Shown piece after piece: positions 1 through 43,172 of a stretch of 64,000 bases of DNA. The translations under genes and the position numbers were made by a program. Below the pieces are notes generated by a model, which was not told the origin of the DNA, ran no database searches, and saw only the letters and a program-made list of their open reading frames with translations. Every line of letters begins with the position of its first letter. The first letter of the stretch is position 1. This stretch comes from Octopus sinensis. Lineage: Eukaryota. The stretch spans positions 5,084,001 through 5,148,000 of the forward strand of contig NC_043014.1 of NCBI RefSeq assembly GCF_006345805.1, given 5' to 3'.

Positions 1-889
1 ACACACACACACTAACACACACACGCACTGATACACACACACGCACACACTGACAAACACACACACACTCACACACACACACACACGCTGACACACACAC
101 TGACACACACACGCACACACTGACACTCACACACACACATACACTGACACACACACTGACACACACACTCACACACATACACACACACTCACACACTGTT
201 TTAATATTCAGTGTGGGAAGTATTTCGTTCAACCCACACAGTAATCGCAAGACTTAATCTAATGAAGTCCGCTGTTCGGATTGGATTCTTCACAACAAGC
301 GTTAATCTGATTAGAAATGTTTTATGTGAATATCAAAATCAAAACCTACCAATTCCCACCCACCCATACATACATACATAGATACATACATGCACACATA
401 CATACAAGCATACATACACACATACTTGCATATATACATACATACATAAATACATACACACATACATACATACATACATACATACATACATACATACAAA
501 CATACCCCCATACATATATACATACATACACACACACACATTTATTCAAACATACACACATACATACATACAAAAATACATACATACATATATACATACT
601 TTCAAACATACATAGATGCATGCATATATGTATACATTCATGTATGTATGTATACATGTATGCATGCATGTATGTATGAATGTAAGCATGTATATGTCGA
701 TAGACACATATACACATACATACATACATACATACATACATACATACATACATACATACATACATACATACATCCATCCATCCATACATACATACATACT
801 TGGTGGCCCTCGTTATCGAGTATGGCCATTGCACGAAGCTTAATCAATGTTGTTATCGTGCAATGCCTGTGCATGGAGATTATTTTTAA

Positions 890-1344: not shown

Positions 1345-1965
1345 CATACATACATGCATACATACATACATACATGCATACATACATACATACATAAATA
1401 CATACATGCATACATACATACATACATGCATTCATGCATACATACATGCATACATGCATACGTACATACATACATGCATACATGAATACATACATGCATA
1501 CATGCATACATACATACATACATGCATACATACATACATACATACACACATACATACATACATACATACATGCATACATACATACAAACATGCATTCATA
1601 CATACATACATACATACATACATACACACATACATGTATACATGCATACGTACATACATTCATGCATACATGCATACATACATACATACATACACACATA
1701 CATACACACATACATGCATACATACATACATACATGCATACATACATACATACATGCATACATACATACATGCATGCATGCATACATACATACATACATA
1801 CATACATACATACATACATGCATGCATGCATACATACATACATACATACATACACACATACATACACACATACATGCATACATACATACATACATACATG
1901 CATACATACATACATGCATGCATGCATACATACATACATACATACATACATAAGTACATACATAC
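1345..1965. repeat. (CATA)n/(CATG) microsatellite (also 360-800, 28855-29390, 29947-30430)
   Basis: Direct reading. Confidence 0.95.
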
Positions 1966-2307
1966 AAAAAAATCGTGTTCATGTTGTTGAAATTCTAATG
2001 AAAGATACTTGGAACTAAGTTAGAAGCCGTCTCTCTTTCTGTTGACCAGAAATATTCTATTAAAACCGAATAATGACATTCATACATATTTTTAGCTAGT
2101 CATTGTCACTAGCTTTGAATATTTTTCTTCTTGTTTTATAAATCATAGCAAAACATACAGGTACAGTGTCTCCCATTTGAAACTCAATTCGCAAGTGCAC
2201 CTTCCGTATGGACTGCATATGTACGACGGAATTCCATAGTTATGATTAAATTTTCTTAGATGAAGCATATTAGACCCCTCAGATATAGTTTTACCTAATT
2301 TAATATA

Positions 2308-28305: not shown

Positions 28306-30811
28306 ACACACACACACCCACACACACTGACACACAGACACACACACGCACACACACTAACACACACACACTGACATACACACACACCAACACACAAACC
28401 CACAGACACCAACACACACTGACACACACACACAGATACATTGTCTTACACACACACACACACACACACTCACGCACACACATACACATTGACACACAGA
28501 CACTGACAGAGACACACACACTGACACACACACACACACGCTGACACACACACGCACACACACTGACACACACACATACACTGACACACACACACATTGA
28601 CACACACACACACTCCCACACACACACATACACTGACACACACACACACACACACCGACACACACACACACACACACTCACACACTGTTTTAATATTCAG
28701 AGTGGGAAGTATTTCGTTCAACCCACACAGTAATCGCAAGACTTAATCTAATGAAGTCCGTTGTTCGGATTGGATTCTTCACAACAAGCGTTAATGGGAT
28801 TAGAAAAGTTTTATGTGAATATCAAAATCAAAACCTACCAATTCCCACCCACCCATACATACATATATACATACATACACACTTACATACACACATATAT
28901 ACATACATGCATACATACACACACACACATACATACATACATGCATACATACATACAAACATGCATACATACATACACACACACATACATACATACACAC
29001 ATACATACATACATGCATACATACACACTCGCGTATATACATACATATATACATACATACATACCCCCATACATATATACTTACATACACACACATATAT
29101 ACATATATATACATACATACACACATACATACACACATACATACATACAAACATACATACATACACACACATACATACATACATGCATACATACTTTCAT
29201 ACATACATACATATATGTATGCATATATTTATACATAAATGTATGTATACATGTATACATGCATGTATGTTTGAATGTAAGCGTGTATATATCGATAGAC
29301 ACATATACACATACATATATATATACATACATCCATACATACATACATATATACTTACATCCATCCATCCATCCATACATACATACATACTTGGTGGCTG
29401 CACCCTCGTTATCGAGTATGGGCATTGCACGAAGCTTAATCAATGTTGTTATCTTGCAATGGCTGTGCATGAAAATTTATTTTTTATAGCGAGGAAAGGC
29501 TGTGCACTGAGTCAATCCAAGTCACTAAGCAACAGCAGCCATAATCCGAAAAGAAGAAAAAGTCAACATCATCGGTAACCACTGAGCCGCAGGTTTTATG
29601 TCGGAGTTATCCCAGTTACCTGAATTACCCTCTCCTAGAAGGATGCCCTAACAAAGGCTAGGAGTCCTCCACTCCCAATGGTTTAACCGCGCGATCGAGT
29701 ATTCAGTCCGATTACTTCTATGTCCCCGCGCATGATACAGCCTTAAGACATATATTGGATGGCCGTTGAATCTCAAGAGTTCCTTCGCTCTTTGACGGGT
29801 TTTGTTTTTCATCCCACAGGGTGTCCAATAGACTCGCTCCTCACCAAGCAAGCTTCGTGGAGTCGCCGGCTTAGTCGCCGACGACCCGACAATGCAACAG
29901 GTTGTACTGGGTTACATGTCACCAGTAGCACTCGAAAGTGACCTGACATACATACATACATACATACATATATACATACATACATACATGCATACATACA
30001 TACATACATACATACATACAAACATACATACATGCATACATACATACATACACACGTACATACATACATACATACATACATACATACATGCATACATGCA
30101 TACATACATACATGCATACATACATACAAGCATACATTCATGCATGCATACATAATACATACATACATACATGCATACATGCATACATACATACATACAT
30201 GCATGCATACATACATACATACATACATGCATACATGCATACATACATGCATTCATGCATATATACATACATACATGCATACATACATACATGCATACAT
30301 ACATATATGCATACCTACTTACATACATGCATACATACATACATACATATATACATTCATGCATACATACATACATACATACATGCATACATACATACAG
30401 ACATACATACATACATACATACATGCATACAAAAATATCCTGTTCATGTTGTTGAAATTCCAATGAAAGATACTTGGAACTAAGTTAGAAACCGTCTCTC
30501 TTTCTGTTGGCCAGAAATATTCTATTAAAACCGAATAATGACATTCATACATATTTTTAGCTAGTCATTATCACTAGCTTTGAATACGTCTCTTCTTGTT
30601 TTATAAATCATAGCAAAACATACAGGTACAGTGTCTCCCATTTGAAACTCAATTCGCAAGTGCACCTTCCGTATGGACTGCATTTGTACGACGGAATCCC
30701 ATAGTTATGATTAAATATTCTTAGATGAAGCATATTAGACCCCTCAGATATAGTTTGACCACATTTAATATATTTGTATATATATGTGTATGTATGTGTG
30801 TGTGTGTGCGC

Positions 30812-30842
<31 letters not shown>

Positions 30843-32385
30843 CTTGTGTATTTGTGTGTGTGTGTGTGTGTGTATTTGTGTGTGTGCTTGTGTGTTTGTT
30901 TGTGTGTGTGTCTGTGTGTGTGTGTGTGTAACACTCTCTGTTTGGCCCTCGAAATAAGGTTAATTTCAACAAAGTCCCATAATTTTCCTATTGTAATGGC
31001 GGGTTGCATATGCAGCTGCGCATGCTCTGTACAACTTAAACACATGGCGGTCGTTTTAACTGTCTAATTATGCCGCTGAATCAAAAGATGAATTTGAAGA
31101 TCTACCAGCGTCCGTATTCTCTGCAATTGTTTACGATTTACAACCAAGAAAATATTTGTAATCTAGAGAAGCGAATGCAGATTTACCCATCAGACTAATA
31201 ATAGTGGGATAGTAAACATTAATAATCTTTAATCTTTATTGCAGCTTGATGCTGTTAACCGAACCCTTCGTTTATCTAACAAATATTCGACACACTCCAA
31301 CATGCTGTCATGAATCCTATTGGATATAACGTGACGATCACAACATGTCAGCCTTCTTACACACAGCATCCGTGCTTGCCCTGACTATATTTGCTCTCTT
31401 TACACTCACTTTTATGGGTGTTGTATTCGTTTTACATGAAATGTATTCAGCTTCGCGGATCCATCCTTTCTTCGAGTCTGGTATGTTTACGTAGATGAGT
31501 GAAAGAAATCGTCGTATTTGATGTTCTCTGCTGCTTAAATGAGGCAATTTTTCTGGTTGATTTCATTTCTTATTCTTGTATATCAGTGTTTAGTGTATGA
31601 CATGTATGTTGTGTGCATCGAGTTTCATTTTGTATCTTATTTCGAAGAGAGGTGGGAATTTTTTGGCATAGATTTTGGTTGGCAGGACCAATACTCATTT
31701 ATACTGTCTTTTGAAGGATTGATCGTGTAAATTCTACATTCTCAGAAAGCTTAAATTGAACATTTTGTGATATTTCCAAAGTAGACGATAAATAGGTTTT
31801 ATAAGATATGGGGTAGGAAAGGAACAGAAAGCTTTCCTGATTAATAACGGCAAATAGAATGGATTGTGTGGAAGTATTTGGTTGTTGTTGAAAGAATCAG
31901 TTAAGTTCTGTGCTATGTAATGTAGCGGTTGATGGCTCCTCGTCAGAATCCGAGTTGTAATTTGAAAACCAAGATGTCTGAGATAGCAGCGTCGAGGATT
32001 AGATTTTCTAAGGCTGTGCATGAAAAGCTGATATAATTCTATGGTGGTACATTATTTGGGGTTTGTTGAATCATGAGACAGAAGACAAAATACTGTTAAA
32101 CAAAATAACATTTTATTTCAACGATAAGTTTGATAAACTGAAATCTTACAAAATGTTTTCTAGAATCATTTCGACAGATTTAGATTTTTCTTGTTTTTGA
32201 GGATATTTCTGGCATTCTACGTCGCCTCTTTTGTATTGTTTGAATATCTTCTCTAAACTAGTACAACAGTTTATTGTAACGATAGACATACTTTAAAGAA
32301 AATATTAGGTAACACAATTAAAATTTTATGTTATTTATTGAAATTCACAGACATATTTTCATATGGAAACGAATTTAATTTCTAT

Positions 32386-32885
32386 TCAATATTTACTGCA
32401 CACAACGCAGGTTAATTCTTGACCATTGACATACGGTGGACATGGCAACGAACCACAACCAGCCTGAACGAAATATAAAACAGCTCCATCTTCGTTTCTG
32501 TAACCTGCTGGATCAGCTTCTGGTGCATAATCCACACACACATATTCTTGTCTGCCTTTATGCCCGTGATAATTGGCCATCAAATATCCTGAATACTCAG
32601 CTGTCCAACCAGCGTAACACTGTGTCCTGGCTGGTAACATCATAACAACAGCAGGTTGTCGTGTCAAACAGACAGCGCACGGAACGTTGTGATCATGAAG
32701 TGATTTAGCGTTAGCAAAAGAAAAGAGTTTATTAGTTGGGTAGGATTCCAGTTGATATTCACTGCCATAAATGTGACCACCTTCTTCAACTTTTGTAGTA
32801 TAATTGGCCCAAATGGGATCGTTAGGTAGACATAAGAGATTACTTCCGCCACCTGTGTGGTCGTACCATTGTCCACCAGCCACAC
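32386..32885 (-). CDS. Copy C exon 4, C4-like domain
   Basis: Acceptor aattctag; open reading frame to ELTCVVCSKY-stop. Confidence 0.92.
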
Positions 32886-34404
32886 CTAGAATTGGTAAGA
32901 ATAAATCAAGTAAAAAAGATATTAAGCAAAATTATATATGAAATTACGGAAACATTCATTACAGTTTGACCCTTAAAAGGAGTCATGTTTAGTCACGTGT
33001 GAACGAATTGTTGTGTATGTTTTAGTGTTTATATGAGTGTAAGCTGTGTTATATATTTGTGTCTTTGTGTTTGTGTGTGTGTGTGTGTGTGTGTACGGGT
33101 AAGTATTTGTTGTTGTGATGTGTATTGCTTGGGGTAGATGTTTGTGTGTGGATGTCAATAAACGGTGAAAGGAAAGGGATTTTGTTACTCTTGTGGTCGT
33201 GATTTCCCGAAATGGAAAAGATGTCGTTCACATTTGAACGGGAAAATTGTTGGTGATGGGAATTGCATATGGTTTGAGTAGAAGAATACGAGAGACGGCG
33301 AGATGCAGAGAACTGGTGGGTAAGAGGGGATGAAATACTGTTTAGCCGACCATACGGGTGTGGCTGGCTATATCCATCGGTTTGTCTGGGACGAGTCAGG
33401 CCTACCACGAGACGGGCCTACCACATACTATAATATTATGATCACACAGATTTTATTTCATACAAAGCATGAACTGAGGTGGGGTGAATTTTGAAGCTCA
33501 TTGATGGCGTAGTGCTTAAGAAGAATGGACAGCGGAGTGGGCGACCGATAAACGATATGTGTAGGGTTTATAGAGAGCAGATTCACAAAGGATGCCAGGT
33601 TGGTTGGAGAAGATGTGGGAAGCAGTAGCTTTGAATTGAATGTGCCGGTGTTACCTTACAAAGATACACTGGACAATTAATGAGGCGAGGTGTTGCATGA
33701 AAAGAGATAGGTTTGAGGGATAGGACGATTTCGGTGAGGTGGAGAAGAATAGTTGTGCAATATGTACTCACTTGGGTTCTCTCAGTGGTACTTCATCCCT
33801 CCACATTTTGCATAATACATACGACCCTAAGTTAGCTTTGTCCATTAGTTACAGTGTGTGGTCTGTCCAGTCCACATTGTACATTCTGCGTTCATTTCAT
33901 TAACCATATACATTCATTCATCAATTCTAATTAGACCTTGTTCAATTTAGTCTATAACAACAAGCAATAGACATTCTAGTTAATGATAGTCAAGTGGCCA
34001 CTTTCAGCTCTGGTCACTCACGTACAATACCACCATCCGTATCCAGTACACTTGATCACCAGTTAGCAGCCTCGGTATTTGATATCTACACTCCATACAA
34101 GTCAGCCAGGTGTCCTTGATCGCTATACTGGATTCCAGTCTAGTCCCTATCTATAATTAAACGTAGAGATATCTATATTCTGAGGTTAGACAACATCCTT
34201 TTCACCTGGTCCATATTAGACCACATTTAAATTCTGATTTGACCAAATACCTACAAAGGAGTAAGCAGTATTGTGCAGTCTCTATAGGGTCTATAGGTAT
34301 CGTTTCAAACGTGATATATCACATGATTTGCTTGAGTGTGCGTGCGTGTGCGTGCGTGCGTGTGCGTGTGAGAAAGAGAGGATAGAAATACAGAGTATAC
34401 TAAC

Positions 34405-34479
34405 CGTCATAGACAAGGTTTGAATAAGGAGGACAAGTAGTTCTGCCCCACCGGGTATACAATGATCCGAGACCGGGTT
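34405..34479 (-). CDS. Copy C exon 3
   Basis: 75 nt, PGLGSLYTRWGRTTCPPYSNLVYD, canonical splice sites. Confidence 0.9.
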
Positions 34480-34807
34480 CTGTGAAATTAAAATGAAACA
34501 ATTTAGTTTAAAAGAAAGAATTCTTGAATCCTATACAAAGGATGTTGTTGGTTTGGAAGAAATTGAGAGAGAGGAAAGAAATTTAGAATTTAAGAGAAAA
34601 AGAATGAGTGAATGAATGAGAATCAGAATGAAAGAAGTAAATGATTCGCAAAGAATAAATTTTAAACGAAGAAAATTAGTCATTTGACTATTGAGCCTGT
34701 TGTTGACGTTGATGTCAACGAATTCAGAGATTAATCTCAGAATATCAGAATGTGTATGTGTCTCCCTTAAGAACGGATGTTTGTTTTGTAGTTGGACTTG
34801 GATGTGA

Positions 34808-34857
<50 letters not shown>

Positions 34858-35077
34858 TCAATATAGGGTGGCAAAAAAATTTTGTAGAATTCTTTTGCCA
34901 CCAGCGGCCTAGTGGGAAAAAATTAAATAGTCATAAACCATTTTTAAGTTCAACATCACAATCAAGGAACGGCCATAATAGGCCATTCACCCACTAGAAA
35001 TAACAGCCAAAAGCTTTAACCGCAAAATAACGTCAATTCCGTAAACCAGGAGAAAATTAAAAAACATTTACCCTGTA

Positions 35078-35184
35078 ATTTCTTAGACGATGCACCGTTT
35101 CATCTACTGTTTAATGGAAAACTAACCTGATTAAATTAAATCAAGCCAATCTACCATAGGCCCTTAGATTCATCAGTAAGAAAT
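35078..35184 (-). ncRNA. Type I hammerhead ribozyme, canonical core
   Basis: ATTTCTTA-CTGATGA-ATCTA...TAGAT-GAA-ACGG(TGCA)TCGT-C^-TAAGAAAT: 8-bp stem I, 5-bp stem II base with long insert, 4-bp stem III (one G-U pair), GUC triplet; cut between 35086 and 35085. Confidence 0.85.
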
Positions 35185-35567
35185 AGCCAAGCCGGAACAG
35201 ATATTTTTCACGAGGCATTCTCGTTGCTACCTCGTCAATATCTGACCTAAAATTTTCAAATCGTCGCACTCGCGCCAAATTTATCGGCAGCAAATAAATA
35301 TAAGCCGCCGATTCCATTACGGAACTAACCAGAAAATTCATAATTAATCAATATAGGGTGGCAAAAAAATTTTGTAGAATTCTTTTGCCACCAGCGGCCT
35401 AGTGGGAAAAAATTAAATAGTCATAAACCATTTTTAAGTTCAACATCACAATCAAGGAACGGCCATAATAGGCCATTCACCCACTAGAAATAACAGCCAA
35501 AAGCTTTAACCGCAAAATAACGTCAATTCCGTAAACCAGGAGAAAATTAAAAAACATTTACCCTGTA

Positions 35568-35674
35568 ATTTCTTAGACGATGCACCGTTTCATCTACTGT
35601 TTAATGGAAAACTAACCTGATTAAATTAAATCAAGCCAATCTACCATAGGCCCTTAGATTCATCAGTAAGAAAT
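35568..35674 (-). ncRNA. Type I hammerhead ribozyme, second tandem copy
   Basis: Same as 35078-35184, offset 490 nt. Confidence 0.85.
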
Positions 35675-36444
35675 AGCCAAGCCGGAACAGATATTTTTCA
35701 CGAGGCATTCTCGTTGCTACCTCGTCAATATCTGACCTAAAATTTTCAAATCGTCGCACTCGCGCCAAATTTATCGGCAGCAAATAAATATAAGCCGCCG
35801 ATTCCATTACGGAACTAACCAGAAAATTCATAATTAATCAATATAGGGTGGCAAAAAAATTTTGTAGAATTCTTTTGCCACCAGCGGCCTAGTGGGAAAA
35901 AATTAAATAGTCATAAACCATTTTTAAGTTCAACATCACAATCAAGGAACGGCCATAATAGGCCATTCACCCACTAGAAATAACAGCCAAAAGCTTTAAC
36001 CGCAAAATAACGTCAATTCCGTAAACCAGGAGAAAATTAAAAAACATTTACCCTGTAAATTTACAGGGTAAATGTTTTTTAATTTTCTCCTGGTTTACGG
36101 AATTGACGTTATTTTGCGGTTAAAGCTTTTGGCTGTTATTTCTAGTGGGTGAATGGCCTATTATGGCCGTTCCTTGATTGTGATGTTGAACTTAAAAATG
36201 GTTTATGACTATTTAATTTTTTCCCACTAGGCCGCTGGTGGCAAAAGAATTCTACAAAATTTTTTTGCCACCCTATATTGATTAATTATGAATTTTCTGG
36301 TTAGTTCCGTAATGGAATCGGCGGCTTATATTTATTTGCTGCCGATAAATTTGGCGCGAGTGCGACGATTTGAAAATTTTAGGTCAGATATTGACGAGGT
36401 AGCAACGAGAATGCCTCGTGGAAAATATCTGTTCCGGCTTGGCT

Positions 36445-36551
36445 ATTTCTTACTGATGAATCTAAGGGCCTATGGTAGATTGGCTTGATTTAATTTAATC
36501 AGGTTAGTTTTCCATTAAACAGTAGATGAAACGGTGCATCGTCTAAGAAAT
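36445..36551 (+). ncRNA. Type I hammerhead ribozyme in the inverted arm
   Basis: atttctta ctgatga atcta ... tagat gaa acgg tgca tcgt c taagaaat read directly on + strand; cut after 36543. Confidence 0.85.
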
Positions 36552-36695
36552 TACAGGGTAAATGTTTTTTAATTTTCTCCTGGTTTACGGAATTGACGTT
36601 ATTTTGCGGTTAAAGCATTTGGCTGTTATTTCTAGTGGGTGAATGGCCTATTATGGCCGTTCCTTGATTGTGATGATATATATATATATATATAT

Positions 36696-37117
36696 CTTTA
36701 CTCTTTTTTCCTTTTACTCTTTTATTTGTTTCAGTAATTTGACTGCGGCCATGCTGGAGCACCGCCTTTAGTCGAGCAAATCGACCCCGGGACTTATTCT
36801 TTGTAAGCCTAGTACTTATTCTATCGGTCTCTTTTGCCGAACCGCTAGATGACGGGGACGTAAACACACCAGCATCGGTTGTCAAGCAATGCTAGGGGGA
36901 CAAACACAGACACACAAACACACACACATACATATACATATATATATACATATATACGACAGGCTTCTTTCAGTTTCCGCCTACCAAATCCACTCACAAG
37001 GCATTGGTCGGCCCGGGGCTATAGTAGAAGACACTTGCTTAAGGTGCCACGCAGTGGGACTGAACCCGGGACCATGTGGTTGGTTAGCAAGCTACTTACG
37101 ACATAGCTACTCCTGCG

Positions 37118-37119
<2 letters not shown>
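36696..37119 (-). mobile_element. tRNA-derived SINE family 1
   Basis: Same head and body as 18511-18911, embedded in (TA)n. Confidence 0.8.
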
Positions 37120-37167
<48 letters not shown>

Positions 37168-37168
<1 letters not shown>

Positions 37169-37453
37169 CGGGAAGCGTTATGAAAATAGACAAAAGACGA
37201 AGGCAGGTGCAAAACAAACAAACAATTGTATTAGTATGGCGCTCAGGAAATATAAATAAAACAAGTCTTTAACGTTTCGAGCCTACGCTCTTCAACAGAA
37301 AGATACACAGAGAAAAAAAACACAGAAAGAAGGAGAGAAAAAAATGCGTGCAGTAACTAACGAATCAACATGGCGATCTGATTTCAGCCAGAAGTCAAAG
37401 AACAAACATGAGACGTGAGAGCGAAATTAGGGGAGATAATAGGGTTGAAAGAT

Positions 37454-37455
<2 letters not shown>
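37168..37455 (-). mobile_element. (TA)n-embedded Penelope pLTR-like fragment with minimal hammerhead-like motif at 37266-37303
   Basis: Minus strand TCTTT-CTGTTGA-A-GAGC(GTAG)GCTC-GAAACGTT-AAAGA; core deviates (A6 to U); flanked by (TA)n. Confidence 0.5.
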
Positions 37456-37515
<60 letters not shown>

Positions 37516-40111
37516 TACATATATATATGCATTTATATATATTTGTGACAATAAAAATGATTAAGTTCTTCTTTTATAGATATGTTAGCCATATTATCAA
37601 TTCTTGGCACCTGATTGGTCAATTACAAATATCAGCTTGGTGTTTGGCGCGAAGAGAGTCCATTTCCTTCCAGAAGACTAGTATGGCCACCCCATTAAGT
37701 TGTGTGAGGCGATTCCACCCAATCAATACTTCTTGCGGTTATAGGCGTCAAAGTGTGCACGGAAGTCTCCTTGTAAGACAACTGACTTTACCCCAAATAT
37801 ATCCAAAGATGCAGTGACTTTGTTAAGGAAGCATTTGTATTTGGCCTCGCTATTGGATGCATTTACTTCCAGCAGCTACACCACTCCTTCATTCTGCTTG
37901 AGCTTCAGGAGGTATCCCTTAATACCTAGTGGGATTCACTCCATAATCCAATCTGAAAACCAGGGATCGTGAGCATCCCACTTCCGACTGTGCAGACATA
38001 GTTGGCACCACGCCTGCACAGTGGAGTTTCCAACCTACTTCCAAGTGTATGCCTCCGAAGTAACGAAGCTTTCTTGAGGAGACTGATTATATATAACAGG
38101 CAGCGTTTTGTATCGTCCGGTTTTGACAGTCTAATTCTCAATTATGAACGGTTGATCCCTTCTGGACCTGCTACGTGGTTTGGAAGACGCATATTTTGTA
38201 TTCCATCCCAATGCATCTCAGATTGAGTTGGGTGGAGACTGCAATATATTTTCCGAATCGTCTTCTCCAATCAAGATCCAGAGGCAACTGCTTTTATCCC
38301 ACTCGATGGATGATTCGGTATGGCTATTCCTTTGAGCCCTTAGCGTACTCTTTGTATATGCAGCAAAATGCGAATTCAAATACAAATTCTTTCTAAGCAA
38401 ATTCACCTCAGCTTTAGATATATTTGGGGTAAAGTCATTTGTCCTGCCAGGAAACTTCAGTGCACACCTTGGCACTGATAACCGTGAGAAGGATTGATTG
38501 GAAGGAATGTCGTCAGTGAACTTAATGGAGAGGTCATAGGAGGCTTCTGTGCAGGATACACAATCTCCTCTCTCTGGTATAGATATTATTTTAAGACAGG
38601 GATATTTATAAGGGTACCTGATATAGAAATACTTGGTGACAGAGGTTTTTGATAGAGTTTGGTGATCTTTCACTCTTTGGTGAACGTTCGGGTAAAAGGA
38701 AGGGGTGGAGTTGTCAACTCGGCACTACCTAACTGTCTGAAAACCTGAAAATTCTCACAGTCTGCCGCACAGTGAAAATTGGTAAGGCCAGTGCGACCTA
38801 CAGAATACAGTTGGAAGCCGCAGTGGATGCTGGGATCGGAAACAAAAATGTGGAGACATTTGCATCCAAATTGTGAGTGACCCACCCGTATGAACTTGGA
38901 CCTCGAAATGGGTTCGTGATTGTATTATTTTTCGGCAGGTTCTTCTTCGGTTGAACGCTTATTTGCGCTAAATTCACTTAAAAGTGGTAATGCTGCTGGT
39001 GAAATGTACGTCCGGCTTGATATTTTAGAAGCCATAAATACAGATGGTATTCTCTGAGTGACCCATGTACGCTAGGTGGATGGGACCTCTGGAAAAATCA
39101 CCAAGGCAATGGTAATATGGGGTGACAATCACAATGTTTTCAAAAAGAGACCAAAGTGTGTGTTTTAATTATAGAAAAGTCTACACTAGATGTCAGGAAA
39201 AGATATGTAGGGAAATTGTCGTGCCCAAGATTACTGTCCGGGACGCGGAACACCCGACCAGATAGTCGTTCAAAACAGATATTCCATCAAACGTTGAAGA
39301 ACTTCCAAGAGGAATACGCTTTAAACCACAAAAAGGCACACGATCACGTGCCCTGGGGCATGTTGCGGATGGTTTACCCGGAAGGTGAGTTTAATGGGCA
39401 AATACTGGTTGCCATAAAGTACTTATATGGATGTTCAAATGATTGTATTTATGTAAAAGTCGAAAGTTTACAACGTGAAGGTTTCACTTAGTTGAAGTGC
39501 GCATTGTTAGTGCCCCTTCTCACATTCTTTTTTGTGATCTGGTTGAATATGCGCAGCCATTGTGGTAGAGGTATCCCAATTCATCTCTACTTGATCGGTC
39601 GACTGTTATTTGTAGACAACATGCTGCTACCTGATTCGTCTGATGGTCACCAACAACGTGCACCGAATGGGTTGTCTGCCGAGTACCGCAAAGCAGGATT
39701 GACAAATACGCACTGTGTAGGAAAGTGGAACATCATTATTTCGGGTCTCTATTCACGAATGATTGGAAGCACAAGAGTGGACAGAATGCTGAATTGTAGA
39801 TATAAACGCAGTGAAGCGCCAGCTCGGGCATTTGATTCCCAGATGAAGAGGTCTTGGTAGAATTATCGACGTAGCACTGCATATATACTCATATACACAC
39901 AATACACGGCATAGTATATTGGAGTAACATTTTAGTTAGGAAATTATTGTAAAGTAGAACATATATTGAAATAAATTCAGGCAAATGCCTTAGTATATAT
40001 TTTTGTGGACATATGGATAGTAATGAGGAACTAATTCAAAGTTGGTGAAATAATAAACCATTAGTTAATGAGTCACGGGTAAAAGACTTTAGCCATAAAA
40101 TTAGTTCTTAC

Positions 40112-40163
40112 TTGGTGTGTCATCAGGTTTATCGTCGAGAGATTTCTTGGAGATGAAACGGTT
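40112..40163 (-). CDS. Copy C exon 2
   Basis: 52 nt, AG/GT flanked, same peptide. Confidence 0.8.
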
Positions 40164-40700
40164 CTGTGAAAAAATAGAAATAGCATCATATAAATAGAAC
40201 TTCAGAGTATTTATAATCGTTTAGAACTTAAAACAATGCAATAGATGACAACATATTCGGACAGGTATCATTGACAACACTACCATCTCAACCCCTTAGG
40301 AATCTTCTAGAAGGCGCTTCAATCCAGTCAAAGGATTTTCTGAACAATATCAGACAATACAACTCTGCATTTCAAATGACATCGTTTGGTGAATCTAAGA
40401 AGATAGATAAACAGGAATTTACGCCGACGTCAAAGTTCAAGGGCAAGTCTATCCCCTCATTGGTTCCCTGGTACTCGCGAATGAACAACCACATTTCCTC
40501 CAAATTTACTCTATGAGTGATGTAGGACAAGAAACCCGACGTGAGGTGTCAAAATTTCCGATGATGGGTCGTGTTAGACACAGCGCACACTGCTGCAAAG
40601 GAGAGTATATCCGCAGCAATGCCGGGTATGTCTGCTAGTACACACACACACACACATACACTCACACACACACACATATATATATACACATAGATATATC

Positions 40701-40779
<79 letters not shown>

Positions 40780-43172
40780 ATATATAGTTAAATTTAATCC
40801 AAACAAAAAAGCACAAAGAAACACATCAACGCGTGGACGTGGAACAAACATAGTATTATTGGACGCCCAGGAAAGAAAGAAAGAAGGAGGGTTTAACGTT
40901 TCGTGTGGAGCTCTTCGTCGGAAACATACGAGATGGAATGATCCAGAGGAGGGAATACAGGGGAAAAAATCGCCAAAGGTACACACGCACACACATTTTG
41001 AATGACCGGAAGGAAATGGGTGATGAAAAGTTCTTTCAAAGACAGGAGAGTGTTAGAGGAGGAGGAATGTGTGTGTAAGTGTGGATAAGAGCGTGTGCGG
41101 AGGTCTGCGTGTGCGCGTGTGTGTCAGTGTGTATGTGTGCAATAATAACACGTGTGTGTGTATGTGTGTGTGTGTGTGGTTGTGGCTGTTAAACTTTGCG
41201 TGTTGTAGGGTTAGTAGCGTTAAGGTCAACGAAGAAGGAATTGGGCGTGATTCCTTTTGTCTCTAGCACAGGTCAAGTAGTAGGTACTGCTAGTTTGATG
41301 TATGTGTGTGTGTGCGTGTATGTATATGTATCGTGTGTGTGTATTGTTTGTAGTGTGTGTGTGTGCATGTGTGTGTGTTCGTGTGTGTAGGCGTAGAGTT
41401 AGGGTGTTTGGCGAATAACAGTGCTTTACAGAGTGTATGTGTGCGTGTGTTTGTATGTGTATATGTGTGCAATGATGACACGTGTGCGTGTGTGTGTAGA
41501 GTTTGGGTGTGTGGCGAATAACTTTGCGTCTGTGTGTATACATGTATGTATAATTGTGCGCGTGTATGTATTATTGTGTACCGTGTGTATGGGACGTATG
41601 TGTGGGTTCATTTGTGTGTGTATGTATGTGCGTGCGTCTCGTATGTGCGTGTGTGCATGTACGTGTACGTTTGTATGTGTGTGTGTAAGCGTATATGGGT
41701 GTATATGCGTGTATCCGTGGGGTTGTGAGTTTTCGGTGTGTGCATTAATGTGCGTGTGTACGTGCGTATGTGTGCGCATGTTTTTACGTGCGTGTGTGTG
41801 TGTGTGTCTCTGTCTATATGTGTATACGGATGTGTATGTGTGTGCGTGTAGGCATATATTGTGTGTATGTATATGTATTGGTGTGTATGTGAATTTGTAC
41901 GTGCGTGTGTGTTTTGGGTTTTTCTGGAGTTGTGTGGGAGTAATGTGCGTGCGTGTGTGCGCTTAAGTACGTGTATGTGCGTGTGTGTCTCTGCCCATGT
42001 GTGTATAAGTGTGTGCGTATCTGTATGAGTATTGTTCGTTAAAGGTATATGTGGACATCTGTGCTGGTGTGTGTGTATTTACGTGTGTATGTATGTGTGT
42101 GTGTATTGTGTGCGTATGATGCATATATCTCCGTGATCACCGTCACAGACCAGTTGTTGATACATATCGCTGGTCACAATGCGCTTCGCGTTGTTTTAGC
42201 CTTCAAATGACGCCACCCCGCTGGTTAAGCGAGCAGGCCAACAGAAGAAAGGGAAAAAGTTGTAGAAAAAGAGTACAGCAGAGATCAACACAACCCATTC
42301 CCTGAGCCTCGTGGAGCATTAAACACTCACAACGCCCAGTCTGGGAATCGAAACCGCGATCCGACAACCATGAGTCCGCTGCCCTAACCACTGGGCCACT
42401 GCGCCTCCACCCAGACACACACACACACACATCACACATATATAAATACATATCGATATATACGCATGCACGTATACTTAAGCATACACACCATAAATAT
42501 CACAAATATACGTATCTACTTATACGCATACACAGACAAACGCACACATATATGTGAGTGGACATACACTGTGTAGTGTGATTTTTCGTGTACAATTGAG
42601 CACGTGTGTCTGTGTGCGTGCGTATGTGTGTGTGTTTGTGTTTATTTGTGCGTGTGTTTGTCCGTGTGTCTGTGTGTATGTATTTACATTCGTTCTTACA
42701 TATTGTCATATATAAAAACCAACGTGAATTACAGTGAAACATTACGAAATTCACCGATCTACATTGGCACTCGCACGTTTTATTTTCAGTTGGAAAGAAA
42801 AGATTCAAAAAAACTCGCCTCACTTTCGTTCCTGATGGAGAGAAATAGATAAATGTGTGTAAATATGTACGTATTCCTATGTGTGCGTGTGTGTGTGTTT
42901 GCATGTGTCTGTTTCTGTGCGTGTGCGAAAGTGTACAACTAGATATAATACTTAACACTAATATTAATAGGGCTAAACGTTGCAGCGACAGGGCATGGCC
43001 ATGCTAGAACCCCACCATTAGATTTTTTTCATTACGCACTTATTTCCCTCTCCAGGATTATGTCTGGTGAAAGAGCGATCGGACAGGAGTACAATTCCAC
43101 TCTTCTCTGTGTTTCCTTGGGATGTGTGTATATGTATATACATACATATATACATATATATACATATACATA

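What the first reader, a model, noticed from the sequence alone, without database searches (positions are those of the whole stretch)
35444..36675. Spacer-less 616-bp-arm palindrome centred about 6 nt from the ribozyme cleavage site
Seen: the sequence mirrors around 36059/36060 (ccctgtaaa|tttacaggg), with only about two mismatches that I noticed (near 36421 and 36617). The next hammerhead cut in the 490-nt register would fall at 36066/36065, so the inversion lies almost exactly at the 5-prime end of a self-cleaved RNA. Inference: reverse transcription reached the ribozyme-generated RNA end and the cDNA snapped back to prime the second strand. This would be a direct footprint of how inverted pLTRs form. 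The structure could also extrude a cruciform and give long dsRNA (ADAR or siRNA substrate) in the intron.
Basis: partly seen in the sequence, partly recalled or inferred. Interest (0 to 1): 0.72.

Follow-up and report, generated by a model that had tools for sequence, protein, structure and literature searches.

The report
Head-to-head hammerhead repeat insertion
A 1.8-kb insertion of a non-coding 490-base repeat carrying a predicted self-cutting RNA motif sits in a TA microsatellite as two mirror-image arms, the usual layout of this repeat family, and its mirror point likely marks the ribozyme-cut end of the RNA that was copied.

Summary
The palindrome is real as described: arms 35444-36059 / 36060-36675, no spacer, 2 mismatches (36421, 36617). 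It is the inner part of an 1,826-bp insertion (34850-36675) of a 490-nt, ORF-free tandem repeat with a sub-threshold type I hammerhead motif, lying in a (TA)n microsatellite. Five paralogous sites are empty, and a near-identical paralogue carries the same structure. Head-to-head arms are the family norm: 73 of 93 and 47 of 58 sampled insertions. One arm nearly always ends outside at unit position ~132 and the other at ~236. Inversion centres are scattered. However, the 17 nt just 3' of the predicted cut are the strongest hotspot for inner ends of the 132-type arms (19 of 138 against 4.8 expected). Symmetric centres are far commoner than chance. Spacerless centres sit on short natural palindromes. 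This, with the 132/236 rule, favours two convergent cDNAs annealing over a snap-back of one cDNA. The object is a new member of the animal retrozyme / Penelope-type insertion kind. No read-level check, RNA, editing or intron test was possible.

The parts
34809..34852 (.). Left (TA)22 microsatellite, the target of the insertion. The boundary with the element is ambiguous by 2-3 nt.
   Evidence: TRF. Empty paralogous sites read GGATGTGAG(TA)nTCTTTACTC.
34850..36059 (-). Long arm: 2.47 units of the 490-nt repeat, with the ribozyme (RNA) sense on the - strand. Its outer end is at unit position r236 and its inner end at r8.
   Evidence: row L125. Units are 100% identical to each other.
36060..36675 (+). 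Short arm: 1.26 units, RNA sense on the + strand. Inner end at r8, outer end at r132.
   Evidence: It differs from the long arm at 2 places, 36421 and 36617.
36059..36060 (.). Palindrome centre. The dinucleotide AT belongs to neither arm's unit register.
   Evidence: 36059 is the only mismatch of the third unit against the second.
36445..36551 (+). Predicted type I hammerhead. Helix I is 36445-36452 paired with 36544-36551. CUGAUGA is at 36453-36459, followed by a long helix II, GAAAC at 36528-36532 and a short helix III. The predicted cut follows GUC at 36543|36544.
   Evidence: Rfam RF00163, 20.5 bits, below the gathering score of 34, E 0.0076. The fold gives -35.4 kcal/mol, z -3.1. Cleavage is untested.
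35568..35674 (-). The same predicted hammerhead in the long arm. Predicted cut at 35576|35575.
   Evidence: Mirror image of 36445-36551.
35078..35184 (-). The same predicted hammerhead one unit further out in the long arm. Predicted cut at 35086|35085.
   Evidence: 490-nt register.
36237..36272 (+). 36-nt natural hairpin of the unit (r184-219). Further copies lie at 34867-34902, 35357-35392 and 35847-35882.
   Evidence: the repeat finder family D4.
36676..36697 (.). Right (AT)n remainder of the target microsatellite.

Best explanation
The palindrome is the inner part of one 1,826-bp insertion of a 490-nt, ORF-free repeat with a predicted hammerhead into a (TA)n microsatellite, laid down as two head-to-head arms. 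It was likely made when both cut ends of the target primed reverse transcription of the same RNA, and the two cDNAs, likely run to the ribozyme-cut 5' end, annealed and were joined there.

Shown directly:
- the insertion and its empty sites;
- the two-arm layout as the family norm;
- the rule that one arm ends outside at r~132 and the other at r~236;
- the equal likeness of all units of a locus;
- the hotspot of inner ends just 3' of the predicted cut;
- the excess of symmetric centres, and their position on short palindromes.

Inferred:
- A Penelope-type reverse transcriptase/endonuclease nicks both strands of (TA)n.
- Each 3' end primes at one of two fixed places on one homogeneous template, either a monomer circle copied round and round or a uniform multimer.
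- In this copy the template had, or acquired, a 5' end at the hammerhead cut.
- The two same-sense cDNAs can pair only at self-complementary motifs, here the AATT of r6-9. That makes the junction symmetric, and hence a perfect palindrome, with 2 extra central bases left unexplained.

The element has no known use to the host. The palindrome is a by-product of insertion.
For: One real insertion:
- Five paralogous sites (93-99% flank identity) have only (TA)n where the window has the 1,826-bp structure.
- A near-identical inverted paralogue (12 difference sites in 9,008 columns) carries the same palindrome.

Family norm:
- 73 of 93 loci anchored on the r132 end and 47 of 58 anchored on the r236 end have an inverted partner arm.
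- The partner's outer end is r231-240 in 62 of 73 loci. In the other sample it is r126-137 in 41 of 47, and never r229-241.

One event, one template:
- Arm-to-arm identity within a locus has a median of 0.9905 (57 loci), against 0.9713 between loci (311 pairs).
- Unit-to-unit identity is 0.9877 within an arm and 0.9876 across arms, against 0.9689 between loci (17 loci).

Ribozyme end:
- 132-type inner ends at r<=17 number 12 of 91 and 7 of 47, pooled p 3.6e-7.
- r1-17 is the top sliding window. The scan-statistic P is 0.012.
- Arms reach r1-2 in L086, L120, L156 and L196, and L161 has a second centre at r5-8.

Annealing of two cDNAs:
- Symmetric junctions with |dr|<=3 occur in 5 of 72 and 11 of 47 loci, against 1.1 expected in each sample.
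- Spacerless centres sit on CTAG (3 loci), AAGCTT (3), CG and AATT.
- L040 is joined through the palindromic 8-mer AAAATTTT at two different unit positions.

Hammerhead:
- The full core is present. In the family only the two permissive positions vary: N7 is U in 56 and C in 33 of 89; H17 is A in 187 and C in 4 of 191.

Literature:
- Penelope-like elements insert with inverted 5'-truncated copies, a one-sided tail and (TA)n targets, and the mechanism is stated to be open (PMC8557442, passages).
- Twin priming gives two cDNAs of opposite orientation (PMC12016303, passages).
Against: - No read-level confirmation.
- The hammerhead match is below Rfam's threshold, and cleavage is untested.
- Annealing through AATT predicts CCCTGTAATTACAGGG. 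The window has two more central bases (AT).
- The arms stop 7 nt short of the cut.
- 236-type arms show no significant hotspot at r<=17 (7 of 130, p 0.17), yet in the window both arms end at r8.
- In all 10 loci of the class [236..~22][~1-8..132] it is the 132-type arm that keeps the last nucleotides. A symmetric two-cDNA model does not predict this.
- The hotspot could be driven by the A/T-rich local sequence rather than by an RNA end.
- L038 and L030 read through the cut site.
- No autonomous partner element was identified, and no RNA evidence was obtained.
Confidence: 0.55

Rival explanations
1. Snap-back. One cDNA reached the ribozyme-cut RNA end, folded back on itself and primed its own second strand, so that one arm is a copy of the other.
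For: - The centre is perfectly symmetric and lies 7 nt from the predicted cut.
- Several loci have hairpin-like centres with short spacers and arms with 0-1 mismatch in 200 nt: L141 (spacer 8), L060 (14), L139 (21).
- L039 folds at a natural imperfect hairpin whose stem mismatch is kept.
- Near-symmetric junctions are 3-4 times commoner than chance.
Against: - The long arm (1,210 nt, outer end r236) cannot be copied from the short arm (616 nt, outer end r132).
- If the short arm is the copy, its stop at exactly the family's canonical r132 end needs a second explanation.
- Among junctions offset by 4-25 nt, the 132-type arm reaches further inward in 23 and the 236-type arm in 8. The 132-type arm cannot template the partner's outer 104 nt.
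- Spacerless centres on 4-6-nt palindromes cannot form by folding one strand, which needs a loop.
- A TAA/TTA fold-back at the full-length cDNA end predicts a TTTC spacer, which is not seen (reasoned from the sequence).
Confidence: 0.2
2. A DNA-level event after insertion. A single-orientation array was inverted-duplicated by fold-back replication or break repair, or gene conversion between the arms keeps them identical.
For: - Symmetric joints on short palindromes are also the signature of head-to-head joining of two identical DNA ends.
- The arms are 99.7% alike, while the family differs by about 3%.
Against: - Both outer ends are the family's canonical insertion ends and abut (TA)n.
- The same 132/236 pairing recurs at over 100 unrelated loci, so the two arms arise at insertion.
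- Paralogous sites are empty rather than single-armed.
Confidence: 0.08
3. An assembly or sequencing artefact, such as a fold-back chimeric long read.
For: - No read that bridges the centre could be shown.
- The literature notes that such structures trouble assemblies (PMC8557442, passage).
Against: - The structure was assembled twice, in copies that differ at 12 sites.
- A fold-back read would mirror the flanks. Here the arms have different lengths, different canonical ends and different unique flanks, which match the empty paralogues.
- The same kind of centre recurs at many loci.
Confidence: 0.04
4. Two separate insertions of the repeat, in opposite orientations, into the same microsatellite.
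For: (TA)n is the family's preferred target, with at least 726 ends of one type abutting it. Repeated hits are therefore possible.
Against: - Arms of one locus are more alike than arms of different loci (0.9905 against 0.9713).
- The strict pairing of a 132 end with a 236 end, and the direct head-to-head abutment with 0-8 nt of microhomology, are not expected of independent hits.
Confidence: 0.03

Closest known systems
Metazoan non-LTR retrozymes (Cervera and de la Pena 2020, PMC7229834, passages read; Li, Clavereau and Pollet 2026, bioRxiv 10.64898/2026.07.22.740005, passages read)
   Same: A short, low-GC (36.5%), protein-free tandem repeat with a type I hammerhead motif in every unit. It occurs in many dispersed copies and was proposed to be mobilised by Penelope-like elements.
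   Different: - The unit is 490 nt, above the 150-450 nt range quoted.
- Helix II carries an insert of about 68 nt, and the motif scores below Rfam's threshold.
- The two-armed head-to-head layout, with its two fixed outer ends, is not described in the passages I read. The word 'inverted' occurs 0 times in PMC7229834, and only in the reference list of the preprint.
- Circular RNA was not tested here.
Insertion architecture of Penelope-like elements, notably the (TA)n-targeting Naiad and Hydra clades (Craig et al. 2021, PMC8557442, passages read)
   Same: 5' truncation, partial tandems, an inverted 5'-truncated copy abutting the 5' end, an extension ('tail') at one end only, insertion into (TA)n, and a hammerhead in the repeated part.
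   Different: - The element has no RT/EN reading frame, so it is not itself a Penelope-like element.
- The one-sided extension is about 104 nt (r133-236), not 30-40 bp.
- The partner element was not identified here.
Twin priming of LINE-1 (Ostertag and Kazazian 2001, as described in PMC12016303, passages read)
   Same: Two cDNAs of opposite orientation, primed from the two target strands on one RNA and joined head-to-head with short overlaps.
   Different: - There is no poly(A).
- Both priming places are fixed.
- The two cDNAs overlap by hundreds of nucleotides, which is possible on a repeated or circular template.
- It occurs in about 80% of insertions, against about 20% for L1.
Self-primed (hairpin) second-strand synthesis by reverse transcriptases (recalled from general knowledge, from no call)
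   Same: It gives an inverted duplication centred at the end of the first cDNA.
   Different: It needs a loop and gives arms with a common outer end. Neither fits the window or most of the family.

Membership tests
Hammerhead ribozyme type I (Rfam RF00163) | Conserved core CUGANGA ... GAAA ... and a cut triplet NUH | tested here: met
   CUGAUGA at 36453-36459, GAAAC at 36528-36532, GUC at 36541-43. In the family GAAAC is intact in 184 of 191 sites, and only N7 and H17 vary.
Hammerhead ribozyme type I (Rfam RF00163) | Score at or above the curated gathering threshold | tested here: not met
   20.5 bits against 34. There was no hit at E<=1 in the 12-kb search. The loss comes from a helix II insert of about 68 nt.
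Hammerhead ribozyme type I (Rfam RF00163) | Three helices around the core, with helix I open | tested here: met
   Helix I has 8 Watson-Crick pairs (36445-52 with 36544-51). Helix II is long and helix III has 2-3 pairs.
Hammerhead ribozyme type I (Rfam RF00163) | Self-cleavage at the predicted site | not testable with these tools
   There is only indirect support, from the hotspot of arm ends at r1-17.
Metazoan non-LTR retrozyme | [quoted passage not shown] | tested here: met
   490-nt period, with the motif in each complete unit. The unit size is slightly above the quoted 150-450 bp (PMC7229834).
Metazoan non-LTR retrozyme | No protein-coding capacity; low GC | tested here: met
   No stop-to-stop frame of 130 aa or more overlaps 34850-36675. 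GC is 0.365.
Metazoan non-LTR retrozyme | Expressed as linear and circular monomer RNA | not tested
Contigs could not show circles.
Penelope-like element (autonomous) | A reading frame with RT and GIY-YIG endonuclease | tested here: not met
   The element has no long frame. None of the 16 longest frames of the window has a Pfam match.
Penelope-type insertion footprint | 5' truncation, partial tandem, adjacent inverted 5'-truncated copy, one-sided extension, (TA)n target | tested here: met
   compared with passages of PMC8557442.
Non-autonomous derivative of a named Penelope-like family | Shared 3' end or pLTR sequence with an autonomous element of the same genome | not tested
   No search for the partner was made.
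L1-type twin priming | One cDNA primed at the RNA 3' end and one internally, with opposite orientations | tested here: inconclusive
   The two fixed outer ends and the opposite orientations fit. Which of them, if either, is the RNA 3' end is unknown.

The most novel reading that the evidence does not exclude
Both broken ends of a TA microsatellite prime reverse transcription on one small ribozyme RNA at two fixed registers 104 nt apart. Where the hammerhead has opened the template, both cDNAs run off at the cut and anneal through the nearest self-complementary motif. Perfect palindromes such as this one are then genomic footprints both of hammerhead cleavage in vivo and of how Penelope-type enzymes build their inverted insertions.
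Probability: 0.4. Interest if true: 0.7.

Novelty: new member of a known kind. Interest (0 to 1): 0.5.

Why it matters
How Penelope-like elements make their tandem and inverted insertions is stated to be unsolved (PMC8557442, discussion passage). Animal retrozymes are thought to ride on them.

This family offers hundreds of young, short insertions whose junctions can be read to the nucleotide. Five regularities constrain any mechanism and can be tested in a reconstituted reaction:
- two fixed outer ends that pair almost strictly;
- a single homogeneous template for each event;
- a hotspot of inner ends at the predicted ribozyme cut;
- an excess of symmetric joints;
- symmetric joints placed on short palindromes.

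The hotspot is also indirect evidence that a hammerhead below Rfam's threshold cleaves in vivo.

For genome work, it shows that long perfect palindromes in TA microsatellites of this genome are genuine insertions rather than fold-back artefacts.

Tried and rejected
- Rfam at E<=1 over 30000-42000 found no hammerhead, only microsatellite-driven miRNA look-alikes. The motif appeared only in a 151-nt search.
- Read support failed. Of four runs laid on 35700-36420, the raw-read run X24 laid 0 reads (no test). The Logan contigs of X1, X2 and X4 were 57-84-nt pieces of a very high-copy repeat, and none could be shown to bridge the centre. The loose ends at 36058 and 36061 were the normal tandem continuation from other copies.
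- My first impression from 15 junctions was that centres are random. The larger samples overturned it.
- Three apparent arm ends at r1 (L005, L038, L030) turned out to read through the cut site or to end elsewhere. L088 (r8) is an internal 20-nt deletion, and I dropped it from the hotspot count.
- I tried to explain the central AAATTT by a variant template. L120 has AAATTT at r4-9, but all internal units of the window read GAAATTAC, so I rejected this.
- I considered a foldback-type DNA transposon and rejected it, because the two outer ends are not inverted repeats of each other.
- The gene or intron context could not be settled: 59 frames of 130 aa or more, the 16 longest scanned, no Pfam match.
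- Look-ups of earlier findings by place and by sequence gave nothing.

Full report
**1. The observation**

Arms 35444-36059 and 36060-36675 are 616 nt each with no spacer. There are two non-complementary pairs, at 35502/36617 and 35698/36421.

The left arm is the inner part of a 490-nt tandem array (34850-36058, 2.5 copies, 100% matches). The structure is therefore a 1,210-nt arm and a 616-nt arm, 1,826 bp in all. It lies between (TA)22 on the left and (AT)n on the right.

I number the unit in RNA sense from the predicted ribozyme cut, so that r1 is the first base after the cut (window 36544). On this scale:
- both arms stop matching the unit at r8;
- the two central bases (AT) fit neither arm;
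- the long arm ends outside at r236;
- the short arm ends outside at r132.

**2. The ribozyme**

A 12-kb Rfam search at E<=1 found no hammerhead. A 151-nt search found Hammerhead_1 (RF00163) at 36447-36549 on the + strand. It scored 20.5 bits against a gathering score of 34, with E 0.0076. The match has the whole core and an insert of about 68 nt in helix II. The fold gives helix I and a long helix II (-35.4 kcal/mol, z -3.1). Helix I is r1-8 paired with the eight bases before CUGAUGA.

In the family the core varies only where a hammerhead tolerates it:
- CUGAUGA in 56 and CUGACGA in 33 of 89 anchored sites;
- GAAAC in 184 of 191 sites;
- cut triplet GUA in 187 and GUC in 4 of 191.

The window's lineage has GUC. 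Cleavage is predicted, not shown.

**3. Is it real?**

The window lies in a cluster of paralogous segments on contig C18. Five paralogues with 93-99% flank identity read GGATGTGAG(TA)nTCTTTACTC, with nothing between the flanks. The whole two-armed structure is therefore an insertion into the microsatellite.

A near-identical inverted paralogue about 0.4 Mb away carries the same structure with the same centre. It has 12 difference sites in 9,008 aligned columns, five of them substitutions.

Read-level support could not be had. The one raw-read run laid nothing, and the contigs of three other runs were short pieces of a very high-copy repeat.

A fold-back read artefact would mirror the flanks. 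Here the arms differ in length and have different canonical ends and different unique flanks.

**4. The family**

The unit has at least 201 matches among the 40 scored of 1,133 candidate places.

Sample 1 was taken without regard to the junction.
- All 97 genomic matches to the r132 end plus TA flank (control pattern 0) were fetched.
- I dropped L066, L068 and L124 (loci fetched twice, or the window's paralogue) and L079 (no anchored arm). That left 93 loci.
- 73 have an inverted partner arm abutting head-to-head.
- The partner's outer end is r231-240 in 62, r128-136 in 2 and other in 9.

Sample 2 was anchored on the r236 end.
- The pattern has 726 matches, of which 100 were listed (control 0).
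- I took the first 60 listed places on contig C1 that were not already in sample 1.
- 58 arms were anchored and 47 have partners.
- The partner's outer end is r126-137 in 41 of 47, and never r229-241.

Arms of one locus are more alike than arms of different loci: median 0.9905 for 57 loci, against 0.9713 for 311 pairs. Units are as alike across arms (0.9876) as within an arm (0.9877), and more alike than between loci (0.9689; 17 loci). Each two-armed insertion is therefore one event from one homogeneous template.

**5. Where are the centres?**

They are scattered over the whole unit. Two regularities stand out.

First, inner ends of the 132-type arms pile up just 3' of the predicted cut.
- With the window and the mis-called L088 left out, r<=17 holds 12 of 91 in sample 1. 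This is the best of all sliding 17-nt windows; the next best holds 8. P(max>=12) is 0.012 under a uniform null.
- Sample 2 gives 7 of 47 (p 0.0011).
- Pooled, 19 of 138 against 4.8 expected (p 3.6e-7).
- Arms reach r1-2 in L086, L120, L156 and L196.
- L161, on another contig, has a centre at r5-8 and a 1,215-nt arm like the window's.
- The 236-type arms show no significant excess (7 of 130).
- About 86% of arms end elsewhere, and some arms read through the cut site (L038, L030).

Second, the two arms tend to end at the same unit position.
- |dr|<=3 occurs in 5 of 72 and 11 of 47 loci, against 1.1 expected in each.
- |dr|<=12 occurs in 15 of 72 and 15 of 47, against 4.1 and 2.9. No shuffle of 5,000 reached these.

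Spacerless symmetric centres sit on short natural palindromes:
- CTAG at r89 (L163, L200, L203);
- AAGCTT at r69 (L142, L116, L168);
- CG at r63 (L052);
- AATT (L130).

Others have spacers of 8-26 nt with arms of 0-1 mismatch in 200 nt (L141, L060, L139, L176). L039 folds at a natural imperfect hairpin.

**6. Mechanism**

The following is inference.

Two strands of the same sense and sequence can pair only at self-complementary motifs, and such pairing is necessarily symmetric. Pairing through an inverted pair of motifs gives asymmetric joints, such as the palindromic 8-mer AAAATTTT used at two different positions in L040.

Together with the strict 132/236 pairing, this fits two cDNAs. Each is primed by one 3' end of the broken (TA)n at one of two fixed places on one RNA, and they are joined by annealing. 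This has the topology of L1 twin priming (PMC12016303, passages). It also matches the known but unexplained layout of Penelope-like insertions: an inverted 5'-truncated copy, a one-sided tail and (TA)n targets (PMC8557442, passages).

The equal likeness of all units suggests a monomer template copied round and round, or a uniform multimer.

In the window both cDNAs would have run to a hammerhead-cut 5' end and paired through the AATT of r6-9.

Points this model does not explain:
- the two extra central bases;
- why the arms stop at the edge of helix I;
- why, in all 10 loci of the class [236..~22][~1-8..132], the 132-type arm keeps the last nucleotides.

A pure snap-back cannot give an arm that runs 104 nt beyond the start of its supposed template. 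It also cannot give spacerless centres. It remains possible for the loci with spacers.

**7. Comparison and novelty**

The element meets the descriptive features of animal non-LTR retrozymes (PMC7229834; bioRxiv 10.64898/2026.07.22.740005; passages only). It shows the Penelope-type insertion footprint. It is not itself a Penelope-like element, because it has no reading frame. Its partner element, its RNA and its circles were not examined.

Earlier notes of this scan describe sister families in this and related genomes with the same two-armed, two-end rule. They agree with what I found, but they are not independent evidence.

New here are the measured position of the centres relative to the cut and the link between symmetric centres and short palindromes. 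In the papers I read, in passages only, I found neither. Their supplements were not read.

**8. Verdict**

The ribozyme-end idea is partly supported. Snap-back is not favoured. The object is a new member of a known kind, with moderate interest as a mechanistic footprint.

Noticed in passing
window 31109-57800 versus G000:C18:4690217-4717000: A near-identical inverted duplicate of at least 26 kb lies about 0.4 Mb away on the same contig (12 difference sites in 9 kb). Window 1500-2300 is not part of it. It is either a very recent segmental duplication or a duplicated haplotype in the assembly.
   Followed up: partly
G000:C18, about 3.66-5.97 Mb: The window lies in a cluster of at least 40 paralogous segments (91-100% identity), mostly on this contig. 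Inside the window, frames of 181 aa recur every 12.6-15.4 kb (17760, 32386, 47836, 60467). None has a Pfam match.
   Followed up: partly
L067/L068 = G000:C2:149648295-149648971: An exception to the end rule: both arms end outside at r132, with inner ends at r301/r303 and a 4-10-nt spacer.
   Followed up: no
L088 = G000:C6:94944099 region: An internal 20-nt deletion between two GAAA repeats removes helix III and the cut site of one hammerhead copy (GATGAAA|TTACAGGG).
   Followed up: no
L161 = G000:C1:31809305 region: Beyond a centre at r5-8, the short arm is replaced by a tandem expansion of AAATTTTTT-like units that seem to derive from r17-33 of the repeat.
   Followed up: no
L008, L011, L178 and others: Very short 236-type arms of only about 18-24 nt (r213/219-236) recur, often joined through CCCT or at the natural hairpin r184-219.
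   Followed up: no
genome-wide: Exact matches to the r236 end plus TA flank (726) are 7.5 times as many as to the r132 end plus TA flank (97). This may reflect sequence conservation of the patterns or a real excess of 236-type ends.
   Followed up: no
window 36990-37100: By eye this stretch looks like a tRNA-derived SINE (GGCTATAGTAGAAGACACTTGCTTAAGG...), flanked by TA and CA microsatellites. It was not tested.
   Followed up: no
window 37671-37866 and 38354-38549: A second inverted repeat nearby: 196-nt arms, 77% complementary, 487 nt apart. It was not examined.
   Followed up: no
window 30000-30431, 37106-37178, 37456-37542: The Rfam 'miRNA' matches (mir-297, mir-3149, mir-1277 and others) all lie on (ATAC)n or (TA)n microsatellites and score below their gathering thresholds. 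They are false leads.
   Followed up: yes
run X24: A 2026 raw-read run labelled with the same species as the best holders laid no read at 97% on a repeat present in hundreds of copies. Only about 3 in 100 of its letters were read, so this is no test. The total absence is nevertheless odd.
   Followed up: no
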